A stretch of 44,678 nucleotides of DNA, filler included, from Jimgerdemannia flammicorona (taxonomy: Eukaryota): NCBI GenBank assembly GCA_003990765.1. It is 2 parts of 2 records of this genome, joined end to end, with 100 filler letters (N's around TTAATTAATTAA, not from the genome) between each part and the next. Parts side by side here need not be neighbours in the genome. Positions count along the whole stretch, not along the records: positions 22,395 to 44,678 come from RBNJ01001311.1; 1 more part is not named here. The stretch is one strand, 5' to 3'. The translations under genes were made by a program, and so were the position numbers. Below, one piece after another: positions 6,611 to 44,678 of this stretch. Numbering within the stretch: position 1 is the first letter of the stretch; each line of letters begins with the position of its first letter. Under the pieces are notes generated by a model. That model had not been told where the DNA came from. It searched no databases and saw only the letters and a list, made by a program, of their open reading frames with translations.

Positions 6611-6693
<83 letters not shown>

Positions 6694-22294: not shown

Positions 22295-22394
22295 NNNNNN
22301 NNNNNNNNNNNNNNNNNNNNNNNNNNNNNNNNNNNNNNTTAATTAATTAANNNNNNNNNNNNNNNNNNNNNNNNNNNNNNNNNNNNNNNNNNNN
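22295..22394. other. assembly gap with artificial TTAATTAATTAA six-frame-stop linker
   Basis: 44 N, TTAATTAATTAA (22339-22350), 44 N. Confidence 0.95.
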
Positions 22395-25300: not shown

Positions 25301-28300
25301 AGGGTAGAGGGGTGGATAAGAGAAGGGCCTCAGTTGGTATTAGGTGAATAAGGCTGAAGGAGGCTACTAGGGTCTATTGGAGAGAGGCAGATGTGGTGGC
25401 TGAGAGATAGAGGAAGAAGAAGAGGGTGTGGGTCTCTGCTAGATTGATAAGGCTGTTGAAATATTGGGCAGGTTTGGTGGCCCTGGAGGGGGTGGAGGAT
25501 TGGAGATTGCTACAGGTGAGAAAGAAGGTTATGGAGTTACAACAGGTATTACAGGAGAAGGAGGAAGTACAGGTACAAAGTATGGCAGCACATCTCCATT
25601 GGCAGAGGCTGGAGGAAGGAGAGAGACCTTCTAAGTTTCTCACAAGGGCTCTTCAGGTAAGGAGGGTTCAGCAGAGGTGGGAGGGGGTTCTCAATTCTGA
25701 GAGGATATTGGTACATAGTATATAAGATATTCTCAGGTCACTGAAGAAGCAGTGGAGTGACTTGTAGAGTGAGGAGGAGGGTGGAGTAGAAGATGCCTCT
25801 ATTGGTATTGCCTTGGAGGATTAGCACCTGCCACAGGCAGAAGGGCTGGGCAACCTGGTGATATCAGTACAAGAGGAGGAGATTTGCTAGATTCTTGCTA
25901 CAACTATGTTGGGTATAGTACCAGGGGAGGACAGCTTGCCCTGGGCTTTCTGGAAGAAGATGGTAGATGTCCTTAGTATACTGAGAGAGCTGAGGGTACT
26001 CTGTGACTTAGTACTGCAGTCTGGGAGATAGGTAGGGGAGCAGGATCTGGGGCTGGTGTGCTGCTGTATAAGAACAAGAGTAGGAGAGAGGACTAGAGGA
26101 ACTAGAGGCTGATCATACTACTGGACATAGATAAGAAGTTGATTACTAAGATGGTAGTAGCAAGATTGCAGAAGGTGGCCCAGCAGGTCTTAGAGATAGA
26201 GCAGTGGAGATTTGTCAGAGGCTGACTCATTTAGAATGACACAGCTTAGGTATATGATATTATTGAAGGGGTATGAGTCTGTGGATTAGATGAGTGCCTG
26301 GTCTTCTTGGATCAGAAGAAGGCATATAACTGTGTTCAGAGAGTCTGGTTGGTAAAGGTACTAGACAGGATTGGAGTCCCTCATTAGTTTCAAGCAGTAA
26401 TGGTTAGCCTACTGAAAGGGAGCAGGACTGCACTCATATATAATGGACATTGAGGGGTGGCCTTTTCTCTGGGTAGGGATGTTCTCCAGAGGGATCTGCT
26501 ACATATCTCTCATTTTGTATGCACTCTCCTTGGAGTCCCTAATGGATAGGATTTGGTAGAAGATAGGAGGGATTTCAGTTTATAGTATTGAGTGGAAAGT
26601 TGGTGCTTTTGCAGATGATATGGTAGTTGATCTGGGTTCAATTGCTGATGTTAAGAAACTCAAAAAGACTGTTGAGTGGTATGAGGTACACTCTGGGGCT
26701 AAACTCAATTAGTACAAGTGTGAAACAATGATACTAGGTAATAGCCTAGTAGAGGGGGAGGTCATTGGAACAATTGTCTCTGCTGAAGAGACAGTAAGAT
26801 ACTTGGGTATCTATCTGTCAGTGTACAGGTCCATTCTTTTAAAACTTTGGTAGAAGCAGCAGGTAGTTATCTGAGGGGAGGCCCTGCAAAGCTGGAGAGA
26901 CTGCCACTTGTCTCTAGCAGGGTGTGTTTCTATCTTGAACACTTACTGGCTGCTGAAGTTATGATACCTAGTGTACTATCTGAACTTCCTGGCCTGGGTA
27001 GTGAAGAGACTACTAAAACTGGCCAAGAGATGGATCTGGGCAGAGAGGAGGAGTCAGATTAGCTGGGAAATTTTATCCCTACTGGTGACTAGAGGGGGAC
27101 TTAGACTGGTTGACTTCCCAAAGAGATTATACTATCTGAGAGCATGGTGGCTGAAGAGAGCTGTTGAGCTGGGGGGAGGCAGCTGGGTTCCTCTATTAAA
27201 GAAGGTTTGGGAGATAAGATCCTCACTGAGAGGATCTACAGGAGATCTTCTGTCCTTAGTTGGGCTTCAGAATAATAAACATATATAGTTTAAGGGCTTC
27301 TAGTAGGGAGTTGCTAATAGGGCACACTACATTAGCATTTGTTAGCAAGGAGATAAAGGAGAAAGGCCTTGGGACCCAGTGATGTGGAGATGGGACCAAG
27401 TGTTACTGGGGGGCACCCCCCTTGGTGACTTTGATATTTATGATGGGATTGATTACTAGAGAGGATTGGGGCAGGATCTGTAGTCCAGCAGATAGCAGTT
27501 AATAGGTATTGTTAAAAAGTAGAACTGGAACAGAATCTGAAACTAGAGCACTGAGGTTTAGCAGTAGATGTTACTGAAGTATTAGGTGGTCTGATAGTGT
27601 ATGTTGAGGAGAAATATCATGCTCAACTTTTGCTCTGGCCATCTGGTGGAAGGGAGAACCCTTGACTGTGAGAAGTACTATAATGTTAGACAGGAAGAAG
27701 GTTTTATACAGATACCTGAACATTGGCTAGGAGAGTGTGAGGTACTCAGTAATCTTTGGATAGTAGTTGGAAAGAGGTTGGATGTCATACAGAAGGGAGA
27801 TAGTGTGAGGAGTCAGTGGGAGGATCTGTGGAATAGACTGGTGAGAGGGGTTAGAAAGGAATGGCTTACTTTAGAGTAGGTGCTAGCTATATGGATAGTT
27901 AGTACTCCTAACAAGTCAATTTAATCCGGATTGGATTCGGATTGATTCGGATTGAATCCCATCCAAATCAACTCGGATGGGATTCGAATCCCATCTGGAT
28001 CAACTTGGATGGATTCGAATCAACCATTGTTTTGATTTCCAAATTAGATAATTAAATGTTTACATCAATAACTCAATGAATAATCATCCAAATTTGATGA
28101 TCTTGGTGTCATTTGAAAGCCTTTAATAAGACCTATCTAATGATACCAAGAACATTAAAATCCGATCATGCATTGCTGAGTTATGAAGGAACCCGTCTGA
28201 ATCGCCGATTTTGGAAATTCTTTGATTTGCTGATTTTGGAAATTTCGTCAAATAGAACGTTTTCCTTAATATCTTGGCAACGCATAATCCTATTTTAATG

Positions 28301-28877
28301 TTCTTAATATCATTAGAACGGCCTTATTAAGGGCTTTCAAATGACACTAAGATCATCAAATTTGGATAATTATTCATCGAGTTATTGATGTAAACATTTA
28401 ATTGTCCAATTTGGAAATCAAAACAATAGTTGATTCGAATCCATCCAGATGGGATTCGAATCCAATCCGAGTTGATCTGGATGGGATTCGAATCGATCCG
28501 AATCCCATCCGGATTGACTCATTCAGAGCACTATGGATAGTATTGGTAGGATACTGGCTATATATATTTGAGAATAAGAGATATCTGAGCTCAGAGGTGT
28601 GACTATTGTGATGGGAAGGACTGATGAAGGATACTCTGATGGGTTGGTGGTATGGGTGGGGACTATAGAGTGGTCAGCAGCATTGTTTGATGGAGAAGAT
28701 ATGTATGTAGACAGAGTGGGGGAAGAGTTGGGGTTGTGGAAGACAGAGTGATTTTCAAGTATAAAGAGATAGAGAAGGGAGAAAGAGTTCCCCTATAGGA
28801 ATTAGATAGTGGGAGGAGATAATGTAAATGTATTAATAAATGGCAAAGTCTAAGTAACTATAAAAAAAAAAAAAAAA
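22395..28877 (+). mobile_element. LINE-e: essentially full-length, strongly decayed subfamily A copy (ORF1 ~22470-24465, ORF2 24497-~28827), interrupted by a MITE
   Basis: starts CTCCAGTAATATTCAGGTTA like LINE-g; APE and RT motifs (LLQDI, EGERPSKFL, DQKKAY, FADD, EHWLGEC); AATAAA at 28835; poly(A) 28862-28877. Confidence 0.92.
27900..28533. mobile_element. hAT-type non-autonomous element (MITE), copy 1, relatively young
   Basis: perfect 8-bp TSD TGGATAGT (27892-27899, 28534-28541); termini TAGTACTC...GAGCACTA; ~290-bp inverted arms; GGATTCGAATCC subterminal repeats. Confidence 0.9.
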
Positions 28878-31800
28878 GAAGAGAACTTAGACTATATAGG
28901 CCAAAACTTTTCCCTATCACTTCACTAGACATTATCTCTCTATTAATCTAAACTACTGAATTATCCTACAGTAGCTATATATATTAAATATGCTAACTCT
29001 CACTATATAGATTAGACTTATCTATTTACTAGAGCTAGATTATCATGACTATTATATGTGAGAGTATACTAATATATTAGATTTAACAATACTGAGACTA
29101 AATAAAAAATAGTCCCCCAAACTCCAAACAAAGGTTTAAGATAAAGAAAACCCCCCAACTAGCCAATAGAAGATAGAATAGATTTAAAGTAGATGAGTAA
29201 AGAACTTACATACAGAACTCTCTCAAAAGGACTAATACATATATATATAAGCTAAGGCTTAAACAAGCTCTACTCCTACTTCTTGAGCCTGTGGGCCTTG
29301 ATCACATTATTATATCAGCTCTTAGTTCTAGTTAGATACTACTAAATAAGAGAGAACCCACTCTTCAAGCCTGTAGATCTCAATTGCATCACTATGTTAG
29401 CTTCTGATTTCAGTTAAATATAGCCAGAATACTAGTCTCTGTACTACTTTAGTCAATCAAAAGGCCCTACCAAGATAATGCCTGCACCAACTCTAATGAC
29501 TATCCTCAGCTTAATACCCTACTGGTTCACTATTATTACCCTCCTATTTATCAATAACAGCTATCTTCTCTCCTATTTCAACTCTATCTAAAAAACAGTC
29601 ACTTATATCAGAACTATACTTGCTGAAAAGCTTACTAAAGCTCAGAGGACTCCACTATAGATACTAGAGATCTGTAGGTAATCTATACTAATACTTGAAT
29701 ATAATAATATCTTATTAAAAATAGTAAAAGAAAGAAAGTACTATACCAAAATAAGTAGTACTCCAAATGAGTCAATTTAATCCAGATTGGATTCAGATTA
29801 ATTTGGATTGAATTCCATCTGGATTGATTTGAATTGATTTTCAAATTAGACAATTAAATGGTTATATCAATAACTTGATGAATAATTATCCAATTTTAAT
29901 GATCTTAGTGTCATTAGAAAGCTCTTAATAAGGCCTTTCTAATGATACTAAGAATGTTAAAATCGGATTATGCATTGCTGAGTTATTAAGGAAAATGATC
30001 TTTTGATAAAATTTCCAAAATTGGCAAGTCAAATAATTTCCAAAATCAGTAAGTCAGACATTTTCCTTGATAACTCAGCAACACACAATCCAATTTCAAT
30101 GTTCTTGATATTATTAGAAAGGCCTTATTAAGGGCTTTCAAATAACACTAAGATTATCAAAATTGGATGATTATTCATCAAGTTATTGATATAAATATTT
30201 AATTGTCTAATTTGGAAATTAAAACAATGGTTGATTCAAATCCATTCAGATGAGATTTGAATTCTATCTGAATTAATCCAGATTGGATTCAAATCTGATT
30301 CAGATCAACTCATTCAGAGTACTAAAAACAAGTATATCTCAGATGTAGTCAAAAATACTAAAAACTGCAAAAAAGTGAAGTAAATACTAATCTGATACTG
30401 ATAAAGGAGTAACTCACTACTATTGCCTTTCTCCCATCATATCTCTGCAGGCACAGTAAACCAACCTGAGGTAGAGGGGAGAAAAGTAGGGGAAAGAGGA
30501 CTCAGAAGGTTATCTACCAAATCTTGTAATCAGTAAGATAGTAGAGAAAGAAGCCTATATAGACTACTCTCAGTAATAGTTTTAGATAGAGATCTCAAAT
30601 TTATAAGTACTTTCTGAAAAGCATTCTTTGAAATGATAAATAATAAGTTATCATTCTCTACTATCTACTATCTACAAACTGATAATCAGATAGAAAGAAA
30701 TAACAGAACTCTCAAACAAATATTGAGAATATTCTGTAGTTACAAATAGAATAACTAAGACTAATATCTCCTATTAGCAGAATTTGTCTATAATAATACT
30801 AAATAGTTATTTACTTAAATGATATCTTTCTTTATGAATACTGATCAACACCTATAAACTCTAGTAACTATAGAAAATCTATAGTACCTACAGTAGAAGA
30901 CCTTGTAGTAACTATTGAGAATATTATATAAGTAGTATAAAAAGAATTATAGAAGACTCAGGAGCAATAAGTCAAATATATCAATCAATATAGAAGAGAA
31001 GTTCTCTTAGAAGCCTCTAATATAACTATAGCAAATCAGACTAGATATCCAAAATAAAGTCTATATCTAAAATATACTAGATGCTATCTAGTTAAAGAAA
31101 TAATATCTAATATATTATATCAATTAAAACTCTTTCAAGATATGAAAATATATAATATATTTTATATCTCACTACTTAAGCAGTATACTTCAAATCTAAT
31201 TCCTAATTGAGAAATACTCCTGCTACTACTAATAATAATTAAAGGACAATTAGAATATATTATAGAATAAATTTTAAACTGCTAAGTTATAAAAAGAGAT
31301 AAAAAATCTCTTTAGAGTATTTAGTAAAATAGAAAGACTACTATTTACATAACTCTATCTAAAAACTAGAAAGAAATCTCACTAATATTAAAGAAAAAAA
31401 TTTTAGAATATATATTTAGTATAATAAGAAAAAAAAACTATAATCTTACTGATATATTACTTATATCTCCTAGTTTAAGAAAAATGAATAGATATAATAG
31501 GTCTAGATGATATAGACTAAAAATATATATAATCTACTGAATTTGAGAAAGTTGAACCTTTAACTTATAGTCTTGAGATTAACCTATCATCTATTGTACC
31601 ATAAGATACTAATTGCTAGAATAAAATAAGTGAATACAGAAAAAGTTACAAGAAAATTTTTCACAAACTAAGACTAATAGTCTAAAAGAGTTGACCATAA
31701 GAATGATAATAAGATTAAGATAAAAAATATATAAGCTTTCTAAGAAAAAACAGCAAAACTAAAAGTCAGTCTATTCTTCCTATATCACTGATGGGAAATG

Positions 31801-32404
31801 AGATATAGAAATTTAAGAAGATTGTAGTGGTTGATGTCAGAATTACTTCTAATATATAGTATTAAATATATAACTCTTTAATATATAAATTTAATATATT
31901 AAACAACTATACTATGAATATACTACTTTCTGAAAAAAAAAAAAATATTTTCAGACTTTTGACCATCTAAATAGTATAACAACACTATACCCAAATAAGA
32001 AAACTCAATAAGAATATTGAAACTCTATAAGACTATTTAACAAGAATATTAAATCTTAAAAAAGGAATAATGTAATAAAATTATATTCCAATATTATAAA
32101 GGATGATATCATCAAGCTGACATTATTGAATTCATGTTATCAGTAAGGTTATATATTAGAAAAACTAAGAATATTAGTAAGATTATAATGATTTTACACT
32201 AATTTCAGTCCTCTTTAACTAGCAATATCATAGTAGTCACATTAGTCTCTATACTAATTTAATATATACTCATATTGATATCACTATGAATATATCTCAG
32301 AAATAGACTAAGAATGCTAAAAATAGTATGAGACTAAATTAGTCTATAGTTATATTGATGTTATAAACTAAAATAGTCTATAATATTATAGAAACTAGAG
32401 TATA
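28878..32404 (+). mobile_element. very eroded Ty3/Gypsy (chromovirus-like) LTR retrotransposon relic: integrase core ~30570-30800, chromodomain ~31250-31385, possible PPT and 3' LTR from ~32071
   Basis: DRDLKFISTF* and STIYYLQTDNQIERNNRTLKQILR...LLLAEFVYNN resemble STAYHPQTDGQTERTNRTLEQ...LPLAEFAYNN; EYIIE*IL...EYLVK*KDY resembles a chromodomain; boundaries uncertain. Confidence 0.75.
29756..30324. mobile_element. hAT-type MITE, copy 2, older and in opposite orientation to copy 1
   Basis: termini TAGTACTC...GAGTACTA; TSD AAAATAAG (29748-29755) versus AAAACAAG (30325-30332); the central loop is the reverse complement of that in copy 1; CpGs lost. Confidence 0.88.
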
Positions 32405-34121
32405 CACCTTTCACCAGTAACATTCAGGTGACACAAGACTCTGACTACACTTATTACTATGTTTTCGGTATTTAGTGACTAGCAATATAGATGGCAATGA
32501 TCGAACTGGTGAGCGTACTGGTCAGGGGAGTGACAGCGCCTTTGGCTGGCAGCAGGTGGGGAGGAGGGGAGATGGTTTGGGATACTAGGGGCCTTGATGG
32601 CTAGCCAGGATATTGGTGGTGGAGGGAGGAGAGAGCTGAGGCAGAGAGGAGGGGAGAGGTTGACCTTTGCTGATAAGGTCAGAATGGGCAAGATGGCCTT
32701 GAGTCTTGATGGCTAGCTGAACCTGGAGATGGCATCGACAGCTGCTGCTGGGGGACAGAGAAGTGTACCCAGGGGAGTCTCAGGTGGCAGGGGAGGAGTG
32801 GGAGTAGGGGCTAGAGATGTGACTATTGATGGGGCTGTGGCTGGAGATCTGGCAAAAAATCCAGATGTGATGGTGGTTGGCAATTCAGGACTGATCATGG
32901 ACACAAGGCCTGGGGACCTGGCAGATGGAGTAACAGGCATGGTGTTGGCCCCGTTACTCAAGAAGTCGAGGTCAGAATTTGTGGTCACAATGTACTTCCA
33001 GGGCTTGGTAGTGATGGCGAGGATGATTTTGGGGCTGGTGGTGCAGGAGGCTAAGGGAGTGGCATCGGTGAAGTTTTTGAGGGGAAAGGAAGGGGTTAAG
33101 GTGGGGTTTGAGGAGGAAGACACCTTGTTGGCAGCCATGAAAAAGGGGATGATGGTTGGTAGGGTCATGGTCCCTATGGCCCGGTGCATGCACTGAGATC
33201 TGCAGGTAGTGCAGTTAATGGTGTTGGATCTCTCTACCATATCAAAGGAGAGGACCAGGGAGTTGGTTGTGGTGGCAATCCAGGAGTATGGTGAGATTAT
33301 CGATATTGGGTTCAAGGTCTGGGAGGGAACAGAGCTTCGAACTGATGATGTTGATATCAGGGTGAGGCTGGCTAGAAAGGAGAGTATGGGGAAGTCAAGG
33401 GACTGGCCAGCAATGTTGAGATGGGGACCGGTGGAATATAAGGTCACAAGGGTGAAGGGGACCCAGGAGGAGGAGGAGGACCTGTTGGAGGCTCTGGAGG
33501 ATCTGGAAGAGGTGGTTGCAAGAAGGAGGTTGGCCTGGAAGGAGTTTGAGGCCAGGATGGTGGTGGGGGAGGTGGATGGGAAGAGGGTCCAGATGGAAAA
33601 GGGGGCCTGGGAGAAGATGCAGGGGAGGTGGATCCAGAAGGAGCTGTTGGTGAAGTTGAGTGGGGGTAGGGCTGGTGGAAGCTCAGGGGAAGGAGTTGCA
33701 GGGTTACAGGAGAGTGCCTGGGCTGAGGGGAGAGAGATGGCCCAGGGTGGGGCTCAGATTGGAGTGAGGGAGGAGAGGGAGGGCAATGTGGAGGTGGATG
33801 CCGATATGGGTGAGGGTGGGCACCCTTAGTATAGTGTTCTGGATGGGGCAGAGAGGGGGGAGGAGTTGATGGTGTGCCAGATGAGGAGTGGGATGAGTCA
33901 GTGAGGAGGATCACACCAGTGGACCCCGAGGTGGATGGGGGACAAATTGCTCAGGGGGTGGCAGAGGCAGTGGATGAGGATAAGTGGATGTGGAAGACCC
34001 TAGAAAGGATAGCGGCTGAAGAGCTGGGGGGTGAGGACTTCCGGGTGATAGAGGAGAGGCACTGGGAGGAGATCCTATGGGGGGAGGAGGTGCTGAGGAA
34101 GATGAGGAATGAGATCCTGGT

Positions 34122-34621
34122 GAGGAGGAAGAAGGCCCAGTGGGAGTCAAGGGAGCAAACCCAGAGCCAGTGTCAAAGCGAACAGAAGACATGTGGAAGA
34201 GCATATATAAGGGGGATGAACAAAGAATGTAACTGAATGCATCAGCCATTTATTGCCATATAAAAACGCAGTCCTTATATACAAAATGCAACGTCCCAAA
34301 AGGGAGGATGCACCACAACTCAGGGCAAACTGAATTAGGAACCACATGACCACCAGAGATAGGCAGAGATAAAGGGGGAGCCAATCCCAGTTACAGGATA
34401 AAAATCACAAACAAACACAAACAAAACAAATCCAAATCGAGATTAAAAAACATCCGCAGACCCTGGAGGAGTGAGTGCGAGCAAGGGGTGAGGCCAAAAT
34501 GGAGTGAGCCACAGCGAGCCTGAGTGAAGCGAGGGGCCAAAGGCAGCGGAGGGGAGCAGAGTGAGGCTGAGACCCTGGAGCAAGCGCGAGACCCCAGAGG
34601 GGGCAAGGATGTTTTTTAATC
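34122..34621 (-). repeat. 3' pseudo-LTR with a tail extending into the start of ORF1
   Basis: near-identical to 37779-38278; the minus strand carries TATATAA, AATAAA and the ORF1 N-terminus (MSSVRFDTGSGFAP). Confidence 0.9.
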
Positions 34622-36701
34622 CTCTCCAGCAGAACCAGAGGCACCAGAAGGTGATGAAAACGCAAAATGAGAGTAATGGATTGAAGAAGAAATAGAAGGA
34701 AGACATGAACGAGCAATCAGAGGGCGTTGGAAAAGAGATGAAAGTCCATGGCATGAAAGAGAAGAGCGCAGGATGGTATCAGGGCATTGAGCAACCTAGC
34801 GAGCATGATCAAATGGTATGACAAGAATCAGGGGAGGGAAAGAAGAGGGGGTATGGAGAGGGTAAGGGGGGAGAGAGGGAAGGGAGGGGGGATAAAGAGG
34901 AGAGAGAAGGATAGAGCAAATAACAGACCATTCAACAGAAGCAAGCAGATCACGAATGATAGAAATAGGGTAGGCACGATGATGGACCATGAAGTTGCCA
35001 AGAACCCGAACAGCAGACACCCAATCAGAATGATGGGAGCAGCATAATGCAAGACAATGAGCCTCACCCCGAATATATTCAAGAAGAGTGCGATAAGGAT
35101 GATTGGACAAGAAGTCAGGGAACTGTTGGGAATGGGGAAAATGAGAATAAACAATAGTTTGGAAAGGAGAAAGAGAAATGGAAAGATCCAAAAAAAGGAA
35201 TACTAGTCATACTGCACACCCAGGTAATAGAATGGTGGGGAGGGTAGATGCTCAGGAACACACTAGGGATATCAACACCAGCAACAGCAAAGACAATAAA
35301 GTCATCGATATATCGGCAAAAGAAGATATCCCCAGCCCAGAACGCAATGGAAAGAGGTGAAGTAATATCACATAATGCATGCAATTCATGGGCCAGGCCA
35401 ACGAGGTTGGCAAGGGTGGGGGCACAATTCGTTCTCATGGCAATACCAGAAGTCTGGTGGAAGGAGCCAAGGGCCAACTCAAAATAATTAGAGCTGCAGA
35501 CGAGGAGTGTAAGCTCAACAATGGAAGCCAATGAAACTGGGGAATCCAAAGGAAAAACAATAGAACCCAAGAAACGAAGGCAAGCATTGATCTCATCAAA
35601 ACGAATAGTAGTATAAAAGAAAGAGAAGTCACCAGAGGCCAAGTGGGAAAAATGATGAACAGGCACAATGGTGGAGCAGAGAAAGGCGAGCTCCTGAGTA
35701 TCATGAAGAATAGTATACTCAGGCCCAAGATGGTGTTGTAAGAGAGCCATCCAGAAGAGAAAGAAGTGGGATAACCACTTTGAAATCTCAGTGGTAAGAG
35801 AACTATAAGTAGCTGTAATAGGATGCCAAGCCAAAGTAGGCTTGTGAACTTTAGGAAGAGTATAGAAAACTGGAAGAGAAATATCCGGGGAGGACAAAGA
35901 GTCTTGGAAGAAGTTAAAAATGGGGTTCACGAACAGAGAATCTGAAAGTGATCTAGCATGAGCCAGAGATACCCGAAGAAGAGTGAGAACCTCATCCAAT
36001 CCAAGAGTACTAGGCTTGTAAGCCATGGCTCGAAAGAGGGCAGAAAGGCCATCAAGGTAGAGCGACTTAGGAATAAGTGCAAAACCCTGATTCTTATCAG
36101 TGACTATGAGCAAATGCATAGGTAATTGCTTGACCGATTTAAGCATAGTACGCATGGCACAGTCCAAAACCAAGCAAGAGTGAGCACGTTCAGAAATGGA
36201 CAATGAGCAAGCTATGTTAAGAAATACGCAGTGTGAAGAGACATTGGGAGGGGGGACCCAATTGCTAGGAACAAAATAGTGAGAGGGCATCTCACTGTGA
36301 TCTTGAAAGAAAATGACAAGGTCAAGAGCACAACAAAAATGTGTGAGATGAGCCAGATCAGTAAAGGAGAATTGTGAGGGAGTCACAGAAAAAACAAAGT
36401 GAGGACTCAAGAATAAGGCAAAGACTTGAAGGGGAGAAAGGGGGCAGTCAGCTAAAGAAAAAGGAGGAGACAAAAGAGCTCCAAGAGAAGAATAAACCTG
36501 AAAGTTCGGGACAAGCAACTGGGAAAGGTGAAGGGGAGACAGCATGAGGAACCACTCAGAGTGCACCAGAAGTGATGATGGAATCTGAGAAGGGATGGGG
36601 ACACTGGGGGAGAACCATGCCAGAGGGAAGTTTAAGAGCAGGAGGCCTTCCCCTTCCCTCTGACTTTTTTTGAAGGTGGTGAACTCAACAAATAAGAGCA
36701 C
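34616..36701 (-). pseudogene. PLE ORF2 reverse transcriptase (one extra base in the T7 run at 35190-35196, premature TAG at 34796-34798)
   Basis: TDKNQG, FYTLPKVHK..WHPI, GDFSFFYTTI, GIAMRTNCAPTLANL, RYIDD, IPF(L)D, FLSNHP..GEAH, RAYP, LVIPF, RPLIA; ends ...SAGED* at the pLTR edge. Confidence 0.9.
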
Positions 36702-37906
36702 ACCCCGTCAGAGTGCCAGACCTTGTGGCCACAGACATTCATGCAGCCCTTACATTTAGGGGCACAGAGGGAGGAGGCGGAGGAGGAACCAGCAGAGAAG
36801 GCCGAAGGCGAGCGAGTAGCCAAAGGGGCAGCAGCATGAGGAACACCACCATGAGGACAGACGGACTTGGCCAGGTGCCAGTAGGCATGGTGGAGGCGAC
36901 TGGAGCAGATAGCATAGGGCCAAGCCCCAACAGGGTGAGAACCAAGTTGGCAGCCATACTTGGGGGCAGGAGGAACAGAGGAGGAAGCCTTGGCGGGGGA
37001 GGGGGACCGAGAAGAGGCCAATGAAGCCTGATTGGGCTTGGTGGGGGACTTGGCGGGGGTCTTGGAGGGGGCCTTGGTGGCAGCAGTGGCAAAGGAACGA
37101 ACCTTGGTACGGACAGCAGCACGAGTCTCAGCACAAATGGCCTCGGAGACCAAAACCTCAGGGGAGGTAGGCAGGGGAGTAGTGGCGGCAGTGCGAGCAG
37201 CGGTGGCAGTACATGACATCTCCTGCTTGTGAAGACGAGTGACAAAAGAGATGCCGGTGAGGAGGAAATGACATACAGCATTGATGTCAGCAGCAACAGA
37301 AGGAATGTCTTGGATGGCGAAGCCACAGAAGGGGGCAGTATCTGAAAGGCAGGAGGAGGTGAAGGCCATGAAGGCAGCACAGGCATGTTGGAAGGAGGCA
37401 GAGGCAGTGGCAGCGGAAGCAGCAGTGACATCAGTGGCAGCGAGCTTGGCAGCAGCAGTAGTGGCACAAACCTCTTCAGAAAGGGCTTGGCGGTGGGCCT
37501 CAGGGAGAACAGAATAGCAGATGATGGGTGGAGCAATGATGTCAACGTCACGGCGGAGACGAGCCTCCTTGGTAGAGAGGGCAAGAACCGACCGGAACTG
37601 GGAGAGGAGCGGATGACCAGAGGGACAAAGGTCCAAGGGGAGGGAAAGGATGGCAGACAAGATGTAGGCCTCGAACAAGACAGTGGCAGGGGTGAAGGTG
37701 GGGGGAGGGGGAGGAGGAAGTTCCTCATCCATGAGCTCATCGATGAGGATGGTGGCCCCGAGGGCAGGCGGTACAGTAGAAGAGGAAGAAGGCCCAGCAG
37801 GAGCCAAGGGAGCAAACCCAGAGCCAGTGTCAAAGTGAACAGAAGATATATGGAAGAGCGTGTATAAGGGGGACAAACAAAGAACATAACCAAATGCATC
37901 AGCCAT
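36632..37906 (-). CDS. PLE ORF1, 424 aa, unknown function (Ala-rich helical middle, Pro/Ser-rich linker, basic C-terminus)
   Basis: open frame starting inside the 5' pLTR and overlapping ORF2 by 70 bp; C-terminal PPSKKVRGK is NLS-like. Confidence 0.65.
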   Translation of the reverse strand: MADAFGYVLCLSPLYTLFHISSVHFDTGSGFAPLAPAGPSSSSTVPPALGATILIDELMDEELPPPPPPTFTPATVLFEAYILSAILSLPLDLCPSGHPLLSQFRSVLALSTKEARLRRDVDIIAPPIICYSVLPEAHRQALSEEVCATTAAAKLAATDVTAASAATASASFQHACAAFMAFTSSCLSDTAPFCGFAIQDIPSVAADINAVCHFLLTGISFVTRLHKQEMSCTATAARTAATTPLPTSPEVLVSEAICAETRAAVRTKVRSFATAATKAPSKTPAKSPTKPNQASLASSRSPSPAKASSSVPPAPKYGCQLGSHPVGAWPYAICSSRLHHAYWHLAKSVCPHGGVPHAAAPLATRSPSAFSAGSSSASSLCAPKCKGCMNVCGHKVWHSDGVCSYLLSSPPSKKVRGKGKASCS

Positions 37907-38278
37907 TTATTGCTACATAAAAACACAGTCCTTATATACAAAATGCAATGTTCCAAAAGAGAGGATGCGCCACAACTCGGAGTGAACTGAATTAGGAACC
38001 ACATGATCGCTGGAGATAGGCAGAGATAAAGGGGGAGCCAATCCCAGTTGCAGGTTAAAAATCACAAACAAACACAAACAAAACAAATCCAAATCGAGAT
38101 TAAAAAACATCCGCAGACTCCGGAGGGGTGAGCGCGAGCAAGGGGTGAGGCCGAAATGGAGCGAGCTGCAGCGAGCCCGAGTGAAGTGAGAGACTGAAGG
38201 CAGCAGAGGGGAGCAGAGTGAGGCCAAGACCCTGGAGCGAGCATGAGACCCTGGAGGGGGTAAGGATGTTTTTTAATC
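37779..38278 (-). repeat. 5' pseudo-LTR (direct repeat of 34122-34621)
   Basis: direct sequence comparison. Confidence 0.9.
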
Positions 38279-38766
38279 TCAATTTGGATTTGTTTTATTT
38301 GTGTTTGTTTGTGATTTTTATCCTGCAACTGGGATTGGCTCCCTCTTTATCTCCACCTATCTTCAGTGGTCATGTGGTTCCTAATTCGGTTCGCCCTGAG
38401 TTGTGGCGCATCTTCCCTTTTGGGATGTTGCATTTTGTATATAAGGACCACGTTTTTACATGGCAATAAATGGCTGATGCATTTTTGGTTACATTCTTTG
38501 TTTGTCCCTCTTATACACGCTCTTCCACATGTCTTCTGTTCACTTTGACACTGGCTCTGAGTTTGCTCCCTTAGCTCCCGCTGGGCCTTCTTTCTCCTCT
38601 TTTGTATATAAGGACTGCATTTTTACATGGCAATAAATGGCTAATGCATTTTCAGTTATGTTCTTTGTTCATCCCCCTTATACATGCTCTTCCACATGTC
38701 TTCCATTCGCTTTGACACTGGCTCTGGGTTTACTCCCTTAGCTCTTGCTGGGCCTTCTTCCTCCTC
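38264..38766 (+). repeat. two tandem inverted, truncated pLTR copies (38264-38599 and 38600-38766)
   Basis: reverse complements of 34122-34455 and 34122-~34286; the first forms a ~335-bp-arm palindrome with 37779-38112. Confidence 0.92.
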
Positions 38767-41263
38767 TCCTAGAGTCAGTTGAATATCAGGTTGATGATCA
38801 GCATGAGGAGGAACTTAGGAAGATTGCAAGTGACAGGGCACTTTTCTTGTGGAATTCGAGGAAGGGACTGGAGAAGTGGTATGCAGTCTGCTTGGACTAC
38901 TAGGCAGATATGGCAGAAGTGGACAGGGTGGAATGTCAGGAAATCTTGGGGGCACTGGATGCTCAGGATAATGTGGAGGGTGACTTGGAAGCTGAGCGGC
39001 GCTTGGATCTGGCAGGGGATGAGATGAGCATGGAATTATAGGTTGGGGTCTCTATTACAACTTTTCTTCAATATGAACAGTACAACTAGAATATTCTCAT
39101 TGAATGTTAATGGGTTATGGGGGGTGGCTAGGAGGAAGTATATATTTGGTTGGCTTAAGGGACTGGATGTGGACCTCTTCTTGTTGCAGGATGTCTGTTA
39201 TGAGGTGGATGTGGACTTACAGAATTGGACTAAGAAATGGGGGGGTACAGTGGTTTGGAGGGGGAAAGTGTGTATTCTCATTTGGAAAGGAATGGGGGAC
39301 ATTGGGGACATTGGACATTGGGGGTCTTGGGTGGTGTGGGGAGTGTGGAAGAGGCCTGGATGGGGCCCACTGATGGTTGGGTCCTATTACTGCCCAGCTG
39401 AGAGAGGGGAGAGGGTGGATTGGATTTGCTAATTGAAAGAGGCTGGTATATTGGGAGGAGTTGGACTGGACTGTATGGGGGGTGACTTCAATATGGTACG
39501 GGATAAGAAGTTTGACAGAACTGATGGAGAGAGAGGTGAGCAGGGTGAGAGTGGTGGGTTGGGGGACTGGTTGGAGATGGAGAGGTTGAGTTCTCTAGTG
39601 GACTTGGGGAGACATTTTTGGGCTGATTGGTGGGTGTACACCCACTGGTGGCAGGGCTGGGCTCCAGGATTGACTGGGTTCTAACAGCAGAGTGTTGGGG
39701 AGCAGATGTCTGGTCAGGGCTGGAAGTTGTATGGTGTCCATGGTCTGATCACTGGGGGATACTTGGAGGGGGGAGGTTTGGGGGAAATAAGGATGGGCCT
39801 GGACATTGGTGGCTAAATTCTTCCTTGTTGGAGGATAGGGTGTTGTGGGAGGGTTGGGAAATAGAGGTGGTGGGTAATATCGGCAGGTGGCAGGAATAAG
39901 GACTGGAAATTGGGGACCACTGGAGAAGACTGAAGGCGAATGCTCAGAGGTATTGGAGGGAAGTTGGGAAAGAAAAATATATCCAGTGAAGGTAGCAGGT
40001 GTGGTAGGCCTCACGGCATCTGGCAGCACTCATGGAAAGATGGGCAGGTGTGCTGGAGGATGGGGAAGTAACTGATTGGCATATTGTGAGGATCTGGCAG
40101 GAGGTGGAGGAGCTTAAAGGGGTGCTATGTAGGAAGGAAGAGGAGCAGTTGCAGAGAATGGTGGTCTGCCTACAGTGGTAGGGACTTGAGGAGGGGGAGA
40201 GGCCTACTAGGTTCCTGTCATGGTTGTTACAAGTACAACATATAAGGCAGTGGTGGGAGGGAGTTTTGGATGCAGATGGCAAGCTGATGGTGGGGACTCC
40301 AGCGATTCTGGGCCTATTGCAAACCCGGTGGAGGAATCTTTGGAGTGAGGAGGAAGGAGGATTGGATGCTATAGATGTTGAAAGGCAGCTGGGAGATTGG
40401 CACCTGAACCCTATATTGGGACTTGGGGTATTGGGGGACCCAGTGAGTGGTGAGGAAATTTGCAGGGTTGTGGCCTCAACGAGTAAGGGGACAGCCCTGG
40501 GAGAGGATGGACTTCCCTGGGATTTTTGGCAGAAGATGACTGAGGTGGGCGAGGTGCTAGAGGAAATGACTGCTATGTGCGATGGAGTTCTTCAGTCTGG
40601 TGTTTGGATTGGGGGACAGTACTTAGAGCTAGTCTCCTTGCTCTATAAGAATAAGGGAAGAAGAGAGGACTGGAAGAACTGGTGGCCAATTATGCTTCTT
40701 GACATAGACTGCAAACTGGTGATGAAAATTTTGGTGATGAGGCTGTAAGGAATCGCTCAACAGGTGCTTGGTATGGAACAGCATGGGTTTGTCAGTGGTC
40801 AGTTGATTTGAGATAGGACAGCCTGGGTTCATGGAGTAATTGAAGGTGCCTGGGCAGCAGGGGTGGATGGCAGATTGGTGTTTCTGGACCAAGAAAAGGC
40901 TTATGATAGAGTGCAGAGAATATGGCTAGAGGGTGTGCTAAAATAGATTGGTATCCCTCTGGGGTTCCGAGGATCATTGATCAGCCTCTTGGAGGATAGT
41001 CAGGTGGCATTAGTCATCAATGGCCACAGGGAAGTGACCTTTCCCCTAGGACATGGGGTACTACAAGGGGACCCCTTGTTGCCCATTTTGTATGCCCTCT
41101 CTCTGGAGCCACTACTGGACAGAATTTAGCATCAGATTGGAGGTTTGGACATTTTAGGGGTTAACTGGAAGGTGGGGGCCTTTGCTGACAATATGGTGGT
41201 CGGGCTGGGCTCCTTGGTGGATGTGGGAGAGTTGCAGAGGACTGTGGAATGGTATGAGAGGGG

Positions 41264-42874
41264 CATGTTCCTCCGGTAACATTCAGGTTACACAACCCTT
41301 TGGCAACACTTTCAACACAGTTTCTGGAGAAAAGCTATTAGTATCATGGCGACCAACGAGCATCCGGAGGTGCGTACTGGGCAGGGTGGCCCTGGAGCGT
41401 TTGAATGGCAGCAAGTGGGGAGAGGCCCCGGCTTGGGGGGAAGTATGAGGGGCCTGCTGGCAGGGGGCCATGGTGGAAGAGGGGGTGGAGCTGGAGGTCA
41501 AGGGTCCGGCAGAGTGAGCTTTGTGGAGAAGGTGAAGGGGGGTCAACAGGGAGCTGGACTGGAAAGCTGACTGAGAGGGGGGAAGGTATCGGTGACGGCT
41601 TCCAGGCAGCAACCACTTGGAGGTGCATCTCTGGAGGGCCATAGGAGTGGAGCTGGGGGGGTAGCGGCTAGGGTGGGGACTGCTGATGGGGGTATGACAG
41701 GTGATCTGGAAAAAAATCTAGATGGGACTACTGATGGTGAGCCGAGCAGTGGGAAGGGCACGAGGCCTGGGGACCTGGTGGATGGTGTGATGGGACTGGC
41801 AGTGGCTCCGTTACTCAAGAAGTCGATCTTGGCGTTCGCAGTCACGCTGTGCTTCCGGGGCTTAGCAGTAACGGCAAAAATGGTGTTGGGGCTTATTGCT
41901 AAGCAGGTGGCAGGAGTGACTTCGGTGAAGTTTCTGAAGAGACTGGAGGGGGTGGAGGTGGGATTTGAGGAGGTGGAACCACTAGAGGAGACACTGAAGG
42001 TTGGGTTAGTGGTTGGGGAGGTGTATGTTCCGATGGCGAGGTGTTTGAAATGGGACCCGAGGGTGGTCCAACTGCTGGTGAAAGGAGTACCCATGGTGAT
42101 GGCGATGGAGATGAGGAAGAGAGTGGAGGATGTCATGGCGGAGTATGGCAAGGTGGTGGACATCGGATTCAGGGTCTGGGAAGGGACCATGCTCAGGACT
42201 GGGGATGTGGATGTGAGGATTCGGCTAGCTGGGAAAGAGGCTACCGGGAAGACGAGGGACTGGCCTTCAGTATTGGTCTAGGGGGCTTTCCTGTGCAAGG
42301 TGACATGGGTGAAAGGGAGTGAAGAAGAGGAGGAAGATTTATTGGAAGTACTGGAGGAGCTGGATGGGGCTGTGGAACGGCGAGCTAAGGCCTGGAAGAC
42401 TTTCGAGGAGTCGACGCTCCTGGAGGTAGTGGATGGAAAGAGGATTCGAGTGGACAAGGTGCAGTGGGAAAGGGCTCAAGGGCGGAAGAGGCAGAAGGAT
42501 TTGCTGGCCAAGCTGGGGGGTGGTCATCAGAAGGATGCGAGCATGAAGACGGGTACAGAAGGGGCCGGAGCGAGTGTCTGGGCTGGTGAGAGGAGTGGGA
42601 ATGAAGGGGCAGGGTCCGGAAAGGCTAAGGAGGTGGAAATTAGAGACCTATATGCTGACGGCACCTTGGAGATTTGGGATGACGGCTGGGAGAATTCTCC
42701 CACCCCTTCCCCTCTAATCAGGCATGGCCCGGCTTCCAGGAATAAGCCTGGGGAGAACGTGACGATGCTGGGAACCCAGCAGGTGAAATTCAGTGTTCCG
42801 GAGGTGTTGGATGGGGACCAAGTGGGGGCAGCAGGAGAGGAGGAACTGGTGGATGTCCCAGAGGTGTGGGATGA
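41264..42874 (+). mobile_element. LINE-g: young subfamily A copy nested in the LINE-f RT; ORF1 from 41346 (two TGG-derived stops), cut by LINE-h
   Basis: CATGTTCCTCCGGTAACATTCAGG leader; MATNEHPEVRTGQGGPGAFEWQQVGRG; many CpG retained. Confidence 0.92.
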
Positions 42875-44678
42875 CACCTTTCTCCGGTAACATTCAGATT
42901 ACACAAGACTCAGACAACACTTTCTACAATGTTTTTGGTGTCCAACGACTAACAATATGGATGGCAACGATCGATCTGGTGAGCGTACTGGCCAGGGGGG
43001 TGGCGGCGCCTTTGGCTGGCAGCAGGTGGGGAGGAGAGGAGATGGTTTGGGGATGCCAGGGGCCTCGATGGCTAGCCAGGGCCCCAGTGGCGGAGGGAGG
43101 GGAGGTCTGAGGCAGAGAGGAGGGGAGAGAACGACCTTTGCTGACAAGGTCAGGATGGGGGCGATGGCTTCTGGGCTGGATAGTTGGCTGGGCCTGGGGA
43201 AGGCGTCAATTGCTACTACCGGGGGTCAAGGAGGTGCACCCCAGGGTGCTTCTGGTGGTAGGGAAGAGGCCGGAGTAGGGGCTGGAGATGTGACAGTTGA
43301 TGGGGCTGTGACTGGGGATCTGGCAAAAAATCCAGATGTGACAGCAGTTGGCAATTTGGGACTTGGAGTGGGCACGAAGCCCGGGGACCTGGCGGATGGG
43401 GTGACGGGTATGGTGTCGGCCCCGTTACTCAAGAAGTCAAGGTCTGAATTTGCGGTCACAATGTGCTTCCGGGGCTTGGCAGTGACAGCGAGGATGATTT
43501 TGGGGCTGGTGGCGCAGGAGGCTAGGGGAGCAGCATCGGTGAAGTTTTTGAGGGGGAAGGAAGGGGTTGAAGTGGGGTTCGAGGAGAAAGATGCCTTGTT
43601 GGCAGCCATGGAAAAGGGGGTGATGGTTGGCGGGGTTGTGGTCCCTATGGCTCGGTGTATGCGCTGGGACCCCCGGGTGGTGCAGTTGACGGTGTTGGAC
43701 CTCCCTACGGTGTCGAAGGAAAGGACCAGGGAGTTGGTCGTAGAGGCGATAAAGGAGTATGGCGAGATTGTGGACGTGGGGTTCAAGGTCTGGGAGGGCA
43801 CTGAGCTTCGAACCGGAGATGTCGATGTCAGGGTGAGACTGGCTGGAAAGGAGAATACGGGGAAGTCGAGGGACTGGCCAGCAGCGCTGAGGTGGGGACA
43901 AGTGGAGTGTAAGGTCGCTAGGGTGAAGGGGACTCAGGAGGAGGAGGAGGACTTGCTGGAAGTGCTGGAGGATTTGGAAGGGGCTGTTGCAAGGAGGAGA
44001 TTAGTCTGGAAGGAGTTCGAGGCCAGAACAGTGGTGGGAGAGGTGGATGGGAAGAGGGTTTGGATGGAGAAAGGGGCCTGGGAGAAGTTGCAGGGGAGGA
44101 GGATTCAGAAGGAGTTGTTGGCAAAGTTGGACGGGGGTAGGGTTGGTGGAAGCTCCAGGGAGGGGGCTGCAGGGTTGCAGGAGAGTGCCTGGGCGGAAGG
44201 AGGAGAGATGGCCCAGGGCGGGGCTCTGATTGGAGGCGGGGTGGAGAGGGAGGTTAACCTGGAGGTGGATGCCGATATGGGGGATGATGGGTGCCCTCAG
44301 TATAGTGTGCCGAATGGAGCGGGAGGCGAGGAGGAGCTGATGGATGTGCCGGATGAAGAGTGGGATGAATCAGTAAGGAGGAGCGCGCTGGTGGACCCCG
44401 AGGTGGATGGGGGATGAATTGCTCAGGGGGCGGCGGAGGCGGTCGATGAGGAGAAGTGGATGTGGAAGACCCTGGAAGGGGTAGCAGCTGAAGAGCTGGG
44501 GGGTGAGGACTTCAGGGTGATGGAGGAGAGGCATTGGGAGGAGATTCTACATGGGGAAGAGGTGCTGAGGAAGATGAGGAATGAGATCCTGGCGGTCCTC
44601 TTGGAGTCGGTTGAATATCAGGTTGATGATCAGCGTGAGGAGGAGCTTAGACAGATTGCGAGTGAGAGGGCACTTGTC
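42875..44678 (+). mobile_element. LINE-h: youngest subfamily B copy nested in LINE-g ORF1; runs off the window end
   Basis: CACCTTTCTCCGGTAACATTCAG leader directly after GTGTGGGATGA of LINE-g. Confidence 0.93.
42957..44417 (+). CDS. LINE-h ORF1 protein (486 aa open; the TGA is probably a CGA>TGA mutation and the frame continues to the window end)
   Basis: longest open LINE ORF1; LINE-f has CAA at the homologous codon and homology continues past the stop. Confidence 0.85.
   Translation: MDGNDRSGERTGQGGGGAFGWQQVGRRGDGLGMPGASMASQGPSGGGRGGLRQRGGERTTFADKVRMGAMASGLDSWLGLGKASIATTGGQGGAPQGASGGREEAGVGAGDVTVDGAVTGDLAKNPDVTAVGNLGLGVGTKPGDLADGVTGMVSAPLLKKSRSEFAVTMCFRGLAVTARMILGLVAQEARGAASVKFLRGKEGVEVGFEEKDALLAAMEKGVMVGGVVVPMARCMRWDPRVVQLTVLDLPTVSKERTRELVVEAIKEYGEIVDVGFKVWEGTELRTGDVDVRVRLAGKENTGKSRDWPAALRWGQVECKVARVKGTQEEEEDLLEVLEDLEGAVARRRLVWKEFEARTVVGEVDGKRVWMEKGAWEKLQGRRIQKELLAKLDGGRVGGSSREGAAGLQESAWAEGGEMAQGGALIGGGVEREVNLEVDADMGDDGCPQYSVPNGAGGEEELMDVPDEEWDESVRRSALVDPEVDGG

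What the first reader, a model, noticed from the sequence alone, without database searches (positions are those of the whole stretch)
38264..38766. Right end looks like independent capping of the second broken DNA end, with template jumping
Seen: read on the minus strand from the right junction, there is a 167-bp copy and then a 336-bp copy. Each starts at exactly the same base as the left terminus. The second stops at GATTAAAAAACATCC, the complement of the last 15 nt of the long copy. Both short copies share a 2-nt insertion (AAC[C/T][G/A]AAAATGCAT versus ...AATGCAT) and GAGCTAAGGG, which are absent from both direct repeats. The long inverted copy also matches the left repeat (CAGGATAAAA) rather than the adjacent one (CAGGTTAAAA). 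Simple fold-back onto the adjacent repeat would not be expected to stop at that exact base. Inference: each end of a break primed reverse transcription from an RNA 3' end, one of them twice in succession, and the two cDNAs were joined through the built-in 15-bp inverted repeat. This would be RT-mediated break repair.
Basis: partly seen in the sequence, partly recalled or inferred. Interest (0 to 1): 0.75.

Follow-up and report, generated by a model that had tools for sequence, protein, structure and literature searches.

The report
Nuclease-less Penelope retroelement, two-ended insertion
This is the end of one dead copy of a common jumping gene that has no DNA-cutting enzyme of its own; its back-to-front repeats are the known layout of this class, and related copies suggest they arise because both ends of a chromosome break are extended by the element's reverse transcriptase and then joined.

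Summary
The structure is real. Window 34122-38766 is one copy of a high-copy Penelope-like retroelement (PLE) whose reverse transcriptase lacks the GIY-YIG endonuclease. It sits inside a LINE with a 5-nt target deletion and no duplication. The 336-bp inverted copy joined through a 15-nt overlap is the known Penelope layout, here in 65 of 72 centre joins. The extra 167-bp copy is specific to this locus; similar re-starts occur at 10 of 72 joins. Two-ended priming is the best reading. All arms start at one base, with the same 1-4-nt microhomology at both outer ends and at jumps. In a sister family, 3 of 3 short inverted arms begin with oligo(T) copied from poly(A), which the adjacent repeat lacks. 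Corrections: the '2-nt insertion' is a deletion in both direct repeats, CAGGATAAAA is uninformative, and inverted arms group with the adjacent repeat (5 of 28 loci), never the far one. Snap-back at the join is not excluded, no reads were available, and a host repair function is not shown. Earlier notes of this scan report the same layout and idea on other DNA of this genome. New variant of a known kind.

The parts
34122..34622 (-). 3' pseudo-LTR (far direct repeat); base 34122 is the fixed start of cDNA synthesis; carries the 15-nt inverted repeat at 34441-34455 and 34607-34621
   Evidence: terminal 25-mer has 400 exact matches in the genome, control 0
34616..36707 (-). ORF2, Penelope-like reverse transcriptase without GIY-YIG endonuclease; frameshifted near 35150-35200 in this copy; its stop codon lies inside the 15-mer
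   Evidence: open 696-aa frame in natural copy L031 ends after the thumb; model pLDDT 72.8, best fold match telomerase RT, E 5e-8
36632..37906 (-). ORF1, 424 aa, Ala/Ser/Pro-rich with Cys/His clusters, ATG inside the 5' pseudo-LTR; no Pfam match
37779..38278 (-). 5' pseudo-LTR (adjacent direct repeat), 89% identical to the far one; shares a private 2-nt deletion with it
38098..38278 (.). 181-nt hairpin module closed by the 15-bp inverted repeat (38098-38112 and 38264-38278); axis of the inverted join
   Evidence: DNA fold z -2.3 here, -3.4 in the less decayed copy L057; 65 of 72 centre joins use it
38264..38599 (+). inverted 336-bp pseudo-LTR copy, from base 1 to the 15-mer; family-typical
38600..38766 (+). 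extra inverted 167-bp copy, from base 1 to the TATA-like box; read as an aborted first cDNA followed by a re-start at base 1; forms the right junction
   Evidence: this length seen only here among 78 loci
33197..34121 (+). left flank: ORF1 region of the host LINE
   Evidence: collinear with window 44294-44592 (85%) and 9469-9760; 19 of 19 empty copies
38767..41233 (+). right flank: same LINE continuing into a decayed APE-like endonuclease/RT region; 5 nt of target are missing between the flanks, no duplication
   Evidence: weak PF03372 match E 0.063

Best explanation
An endonuclease-less PLE inserts into breaks or gaps that it does not make itself. Its RT engages both DNA ends. Each 3' end pairs through 0-4 nt with the RNA just beyond a fixed start site (base 1 of the pseudo-LTR) and primes its own first-strand cDNA. 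A cDNA can let go and re-start at base 1, which gives tandem pieces such as the 167-bp copy. When one cDNA reaches the outer 15-mer (base 500), its 3' end pairs with the complementary inner 15-mer (bases 320-334) of the other cDNA. Each is then filled in on the other, giving a head-to-head join with two RNA-3' ends facing outward. The second cDNA comes from the same donor lineage: often the 5' repeat, at this locus a sister template. SHOWN from sequence: layout, fixed start, 15-mer join, lack of endonuclease, irregular target ends, per-insertion origin of the arms, poly(A)-derived tracts on short arms in the sister family. INFERRED: order of events, pairing in trans rather than snap-back, RT dimer, the source of the break.
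For: 65 of 72 centre joins in 70 of 78 loci are at the 15-mer; the arm that ends there begins at base 1 in 70 of 72 and has flank (37), a whole element (23) or a jump (10) outside it. Microhomology of 3 nt or more to the bases beyond base 1: 9 of 56 long outer ends, 6 of 50 short outer ends, 7 of 31 jumps, against 0.5, 0.3 and 0.6 expected; so both ends and jumps carry one signature. In 8 of 72 joins the arm with the full 500 nt sits directly on flank. Non-decay variants are shared by all three repeats in 18 of 28 loci and differ between loci; the two arms of 14 of 14 head-to-head loci are near-closest relatives. Here the inverted copies lack the deletion that both direct repeats share and share a rare T, so they are not copies of the adjacent cDNA. 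Sister family (RT 39% identical; same layout): 3 of 3 short inverted arms start with oligo(T); 13 of 13 internal read-through junctions have none; 22 of 26 outer ends have a T tract (2 weak, 2 none); tracts differ between the two ends in the 6 loci read fully at both ends; one tandem jump has T25. Empty sites, 15 informative of 36 tested: 10 deletions (3,3,4,4,5,5,9,11,77,140 nt), 3 flush, 2 duplications (12, 222 nt). RT ends after the thumb. In vitro an endonuclease-bearing PLE extends both strands from the same internal RNA site and is predicted to be a dimer (PMC11167929).
Against: The hairpin folds well within one cDNA, so snap-back in cis is physically favoured. Inverted arms group with the adjacent repeat in 5 of 28 loci and are slightly closer to it overall (20.5 against 22.6 differences, p 0.052), as fold-back or gene conversion would give. 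Arms of head-to-head loci almost never differ by a lineage marker (one clear case, L086), so two separate RNAs are rarely demonstrable. The 'swapped' joins could come from later flipping of the 151-nt spacer. The oligo(T) test is from the sister family, n = 3; for one of the three the adjacent junction is inferred from spacing, and the far-end tracts of these three were not read. In L149 both ends show a similar T-ATTA-T pattern. The window's shared deletion could be conversion between its direct repeats. Loci were mostly best hits, so whole copies are over-represented; repeated jumps in L070 are not independent. Four loci are truncated with no inverted cap seen.
Confidence: 0.7

Rival explanations
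1. Snap-back in cis: one end primes a full cDNA, its 3' 15-mer folds back on the inner 15-mer of the same strand, the RT copies the repeat backwards, stops at base 1 and the new end is joined to the other DNA end by microhomology.
For: Stable hairpin in the cDNA strand; inverted arm groups with the adjacent repeat in 5 of 28 loci; both arms of whole palindromes come from one lineage; alternative joins lie in the same hairpin.
Against: No reason to stop at base 1 of the 5' repeat, yet 70 of 72 arms reach it and uninterrupted arms end there or run through a whole element. Snap-back on the far repeat would explain the stop but predicts far+inverted sharing, seen in 0 of 28. It cannot give oligo(T) on short arms or different T tracts at two ends, nor the window's deletion pattern.
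Confidence: 0.15
2. Self-priming on an antisense transcript (proposed in PMC3846280) or another pre-formed hairpin/palindromic DNA intermediate, later captured whole at a break by end-joining.
For: Published reading of head-to-head palindromic joins; small deletions without duplication fit end-joining.
Against: Outer ends on both sides look target-primed on sense RNA: microhomology to the sense tail, oligo(T) with repeated re-starts. Occasional target duplications of 12 and 222 nt fit priming at staggered ends. No expression data were obtained.
Confidence: 0.08
3. Same two-ended synthesis, but the cut is made on purpose by an endonuclease borrowed in trans (an abundant LINE APE enzyme or an unseen GIY-YIG PLE), so this is ordinary retrotransposition with a helper, not capture of chance breaks. 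This rival concerns only the source of the break.
For: The genome is rich in LINEs and this copy sits in one; 2 of 15 sites have duplications, a third (L032) may; the search for PLE-linked endonucleases scored only 60 of 423 candidates.
Against: No target consensus beyond the 1-4-nt microhomology; 13 of 15 sites lack a duplication; 60 of 60 scored matches to an endonuclease-bearing PLE stop before its endonuclease; 8 of 43 GIY-YIG hits were fetched and none has an RT beside it.
Confidence: 0.25
4. The right end is inherited whole from a master copy, or is a misassembly.
For: The 500/334 join is the same in 65 of 72 cases; the assembly is fragmented and no reads were checked.
Against: Arms carry the private variants of their own locus; the outer additions differ from locus to locus; the copies differ at 10-13% of sites and the flanks rejoin one LINE.
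Confidence: 0.02

Closest known systems
Typical endonuclease-bearing Penelope insertion, e.g. Pen2a_Av of Adineta vaga (PMC3846280; passages read)
   Same: Two direct pseudo-LTRs plus an adjacent, shorter inverted one that overlaps the direct one by 15 bp; ORF start inside the pseudo-LTR; palindrome at the join.
   Different: Pen2a has one ORF with GIY-YIG, an 8-10-bp target duplication and a 31-bp tail. Here there is no endonuclease, two ORFs, mostly small deletions, only 0-4 nt of tail. That paper says endonuclease-less PLEs of fungi and protists do not share this organisation.
Coprina and Athena, endonuclease-less PLEs (PMC8557442 passages and section 9; PMC13159263 passages)
   Same: RT ending after the thumb, DKN motif, upstream ORF1 (as in Coprina-1_Alen), pseudo-LTRs, reliance on exposed DNA ends.
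   Different: Those attach to telomeres through reverse-complement telomeric repeats next to a hammerhead and are few. This family has no telomeric repeats, no canonical hammerhead found, hundreds of terminal repeats, interstitial sites and the inverted cap.
PLE-X of Chara and Selaginella, MjPLE01 (PMC8557442)
   Same: Endonuclease lost, yet intrachromosomal; genome-wide in Chara.
   Different: PLE-X belong to the Chlamys group, keep a CxC motif and hammerheads, and in Selaginella target 28S rDNA; how they insert is stated as unknown. Their junction structure was not visible to me (supplements not read).
PAc Poseidon of Anolis in vitro (PMC11167929; parts 1-2 of 4 read)
   Same: Fixed internal RT start site; both DNA strands extended from the same site; predicted dimer.
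   Different: Needs its own GIY-YIG cut; the parts read do not link this to inverted pseudo-LTRs.
L1 twin priming and endonuclease-independent L1 insertion (10.1101/2024.12.14.628481 passages; original papers recalled, not read)
   Same: Both ends of a broken site prime cDNA, then join into an inverted insertion.
   Different: In L1 the second primer lands at a variable internal site of one RNA and the join is by chance microhomology; here both start at one fixed base and join at a built-in 15-bp inverted repeat.

Membership tests
Penelope-like elements (PLE) | PLE-type RT, telomerase-related, with N-terminal motifs, DKN/DKG and thumb | tested here: met
   best fold match TERT; weak RVT_1 in 3 natural copies
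Penelope-like elements (PLE) | pseudo-LTRs, direct and/or inverted, partial tandems | tested here: met
Penelope-like elements (PLE) | hammerhead ribozyme in the pseudo-LTR (absent in Naiad and most Chlamys) | tested here: not met
   no hammerhead in Rfam scans of the window stretch and 5 loci; CUGAUG is present without a GAAA on that strand; a variant ribozyme is not excluded
EN+ PLE (Penelope/Poseidon, Neptune, Nematis, Hydra) | C-terminal GIY-YIG endonuclease | tested here: not met
   open frames end after the thumb; endonuclease parts of 3 relatives find nothing in the loci
EN+ PLE (Penelope/Poseidon, Neptune, Nematis, Hydra) | short target-site duplication and 30-40-bp tail | tested here: not met
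   28 of 30 loci have no direct repeat above the null range; tail at most 4 nt
Naiad/Chlamys/PLE-X | N-terminal GIY-YIG and/or CxC linker motif | tested here: inconclusive
   no GIY-YIG in ORF1 or the RT N-terminus; no reference alignment was at hand to test CxC or the insertion in fingers
Coprina (EN- PLE) | no endonuclease | tested here: met
Coprina (EN- PLE) | reverse-complement telomeric repeats at the 3' junction; telomeric location | tested here: not met
   none in 3 elements scanned; sites are inside other repeats; a third PLE family of this genome does have them
Coprina (EN- PLE) | RT phylogeny within the Coprina clade | tested here: inconclusive
   tree of 22 mostly unnamed rows: this family, its sister and one metagenomic protein form a starred long-branch group among endonuclease-less RTs; no named Coprina reference
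RT-mediated double-strand-break repair as a host function | insertion at induced breaks and benefit to the host | not testable with these tools
   only the junction signature could be read

The most novel reading that the evidence does not exclude
An endonuclease-less, telomerase-related RT has spread through a genome as a dedicated break-bridging machine: it primes at both broken ends from one RNA site, re-starts repeatedly like telomerase, and seals the break through an inverted repeat built into its own RNA. The inverted pseudo-LTRs of all Penelope elements would then come from two-ended priming by the RT and not from the endonuclease's cutting pattern or antisense self-priming.
Probability: 0.45. 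Interest if true: 0.75.

Novelty: new variant of a known kind. Interest (0 to 1): 0.55.

Why it matters
How PLEs make their tandem and inverted repeats is described as still undefined, and has been put down to the endonuclease's cleavage (PMC8557442) or to antisense self-priming (PMC3846280). Two families without an endonuclease that make the same layout at irregular interstitial sites show that the enzyme is not needed. The poly(A)-primed sister family records each priming event, which makes the question testable from sequence alone. It also widens the view that endonuclease-less PLEs are few and telomere-bound. The layout itself is known, this copy is dead, and this scan has noted the same thing at other loci of this genome.

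Tried and rejected
Rfam scans found no hammerhead or other family. Pfam named neither ORF in the window. No sequencing run was listed, so no reads were laid and nothing is known on expression or RNA ends. Telomeric repeats inside the element: none. A regular target duplication: rejected. DIRS/Ngaro or DNA-transposon terminal repeats: rejected, the RT is PLE-type and no recombinase or transposase frame is present. A circular one-repeat template does not explain loci where the far repeat differs from the two central ones, unless conversion acted. Looking for arms of different lineage gave one clear case in 14. One row (second L037 end) was a scripting error and was dropped; redid the counts. L034, L038 and L040 were left out as overlaps of other loci, L128 also; L136 was uninformative (tandem flank). 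The host was not identified; a fungus is likely by inference (CpG-only decay; TTAGGG repeats; homing-endonuclease-like GIY-YIG frames, label recalled). One paper looked up by a recalled id was not held. Searches for a printed account of two-ended priming in endonuclease-less PLEs found none; most subscription papers, including Gladyshev and Arkhipova 2007 and Arkhipova 2006, were not readable, and no supplements were read (those of PMC8557442 may describe PLE-X junctions).

Full report
What is there. Window 34122-38766 is one insertion. On the minus strand it reads: 5' pseudo-LTR (37779-38278), ORF1 (36632-37906), an RT frame (34616-36707, frameshifted here) and a 3' pseudo-LTR (34122-34622). 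To the right lie two inverted copies of the repeat, 336 bp (38264-38599) and 167 bp (38600-38766), both starting at the same base as the direct repeats; the longer overlaps the adjacent repeat by a 15-mer. The flanks rejoin a LINE: 19 of 19 empty copies fetched have 5 nt between the two flanks that are missing here, and nothing is duplicated.

The protein. The RT has PLE-type relatives. A natural copy (L031) has an open 696-aa frame that ends just after the thumb, while three relatives in the same alignment continue into a GIY-YIG domain. The model (mean pLDDT 72.8) best matches telomerase RT. An endonuclease-bearing PLE used as query matched only by its RT in 60 of 60 scored places out of 423 candidates. 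Of 43 GIY-YIG hits in the genome 8 were fetched; none has an RT beside it. So the element has no endonuclease, and no PLE helper was seen, though the search is not exhaustive.

Against 183 repeat copies, the '2-nt insertion' is the family state and the window's two direct repeats share a private deletion; CAGGTTAAAA is private to the adjacent repeat; the T of GAGCTAAGGG is in both inverted copies and 5 of 176 others; a private A>G joins the long inverted copy to both direct repeats. The inverted copies therefore came from a template of the same lineage but not from the adjacent cDNA, unless the direct repeats were later converted.

The family. The terminal 25-mer occurs 400 times exactly, which by inference means well over a hundred insertions. 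I mapped 78 loci: 57 chosen from best hits, 20 chosen from the first 100 of the 400 motif hits, and the window. Seventy have a head-to-head join; 65 of 72 joins use the 15-mer. The arm ending there reaches base 1 in 70 of 72 and has flank (37), a whole element (23) or a jump (10) outside it; in 8 joins the full 500-nt arm is the one on the flank. Arms carry the private variants of their own locus: all three repeats share non-decay variants in 18 of 28 single-unit loci, and both arms of 14 of 14 head-to-head loci are near-closest relatives. The structure is made at each insertion.

Junctions. Both outer ends and the jumps are enriched for 1-4 nt matching the bases that precede base 1 inside the element (3 nt or more: 9 of 56, 6 of 50, 7 of 31; expected under 1 each). 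Of 36 loci tested for empty sites 15 were informative: 10 deletions of 3-140 nt, 3 flush, 2 duplications of 12 and 222 nt. This mix fits capture of breaks or gaps better than a dedicated nick (inference).

A sister family decides more. A second endonuclease-less family (RT 39% identical) has the same layout with a 700-bp repeat and a join overlapping by about 20 nt. Its arms start with oligo(T), a copy of poly(A). In 40 stretches read, 13 of 13 internal read-through junctions lack a T tract, 22 of 26 outer ends have one (2 weak, 2 none), 3 of 3 short inverted arms have one, a tandem jump has T25, and the two ends differ in the 6 loci read fully at both ends, often with repeated re-starts. Fold-back on the adjacent repeat cannot give this. 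Limits: three short arms only, far-end tracts of those three not read, and L149 shows a similar pattern at both ends.

How it most likely works. Both DNA ends prime first-strand cDNA at base 1; a cDNA may drop off and re-start there; one cDNA reaches the outer 15-mer and pairs with the inner 15-mer of the other; fill-in seals the site. At this locus the left end gave the full element and the right end gave 165 nt, re-started, and was joined at base 334. I put this at 0.7. Snap-back in cis stays possible for this family (0.15) because the hairpin is stable in one strand and two separate RNAs are seldom demonstrable. Whether the break is accidental or cut by a borrowed nuclease is open (0.25 for a helper).

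Against what is known. The layout is the typical Penelope one: Pen2a_Av has an inverted repeat overlapping the direct one by 15 bp, and that paper reads such joins as antisense self-priming and says endonuclease-less PLEs lack the organisation (PMC3846280, passages). PMC8557442 (passages and section 9) calls the inverted copy common, ties it to endonuclease cleavage, places endonuclease-less PLEs at telomeres, and notes PLE-X families that are genome-wide without one. PMC11167929 (parts 1-2 of 4) shows internal initiation and extension of both strands in vitro. PMC13159263, PMC7943196, 10.64898/2026.07.22.740005 and 10.1101/2024.12.14.628481 were seen as passages. Nine searches found no printed account of this combination; key subscription papers and all supplements were unseen. 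It is a PLE and works like a two-ended Penelope insertion. It is not an EN+ Penelope, and it fails the telomere test of Coprina.

Earlier notes. Eight notes of this scan on other DNA of the same genome describe the same layout and idea, one with outward poly(A) tails. I read them; they are not independent support, and I did not check their loci.

Verdict. Observation confirmed with corrections; interpretation partly supported; new variant of a known kind; interest 0.55.

Noticed in passing
L065:3385-3399 (G000:C4094): A truncated copy of this family ends in about two and a half telomere-type repeats (GGGTTA) before unrelated flank, as if telomerase extended the free cDNA end before joining. 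Single case; empty site not found.
   Followed up: partly
L141:619-637 and L142:3364-3382: A third PLE family has three reverse-complement telomeric repeats at its 3' junction, like classical Coprina, yet lies inside contigs next to non-telomeric DNA.
   Followed up: partly
L145-L149, L150-L189: Sister endonuclease-less family with poly(A)-primed ends and stuttered T/ATT tracts; most listed loci are whole 9-kb head-to-head palindromes.
   Followed up: yes
L070: One locus with three centre joins and repeated re-starts of 59, 126 and 329 nt; 126 nt lies about 30 nt from the TATA-like box and may mark an RNA 5' end.
   Followed up: no
L032, L036, L048, L051: The same 66-nt deletion between two short direct repeats inside the hairpin recurs in single repeats of different loci, probably RT slippage.
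   Followed up: no
L071: Insertion flanked by a 222-nt target duplication; L074 has 12 nt.
   Followed up: partly
window 27947-28496 and 29770-30310: Two copies of an AT-rich, about 550-bp non-coding element with long terminal inverted arms and short GGATT(C)GAATCC palindromes; a repeat family that is also a target of both PLE families.
   Followed up: no
window 1-27900 and 32400-44678: The rest of the window is mostly nested, decayed LINE-like copies with poly(A) tails (6614-6691, 20370-20395, 28862-28877) and an assembly gap near 22295-22394.
   Followed up: no
window 34607-34621: The RT stop codon lies inside the 15-mer that makes the join, and the ORF1 start lies inside the repeat, so the join motif overlaps coding signals.
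   Followed up: no
183 repeat copies and 76 internal copies: Decay is almost all C>T/G>A, strongest at CpG (0.2-0.4) with no CHG excess.
   Followed up: partly
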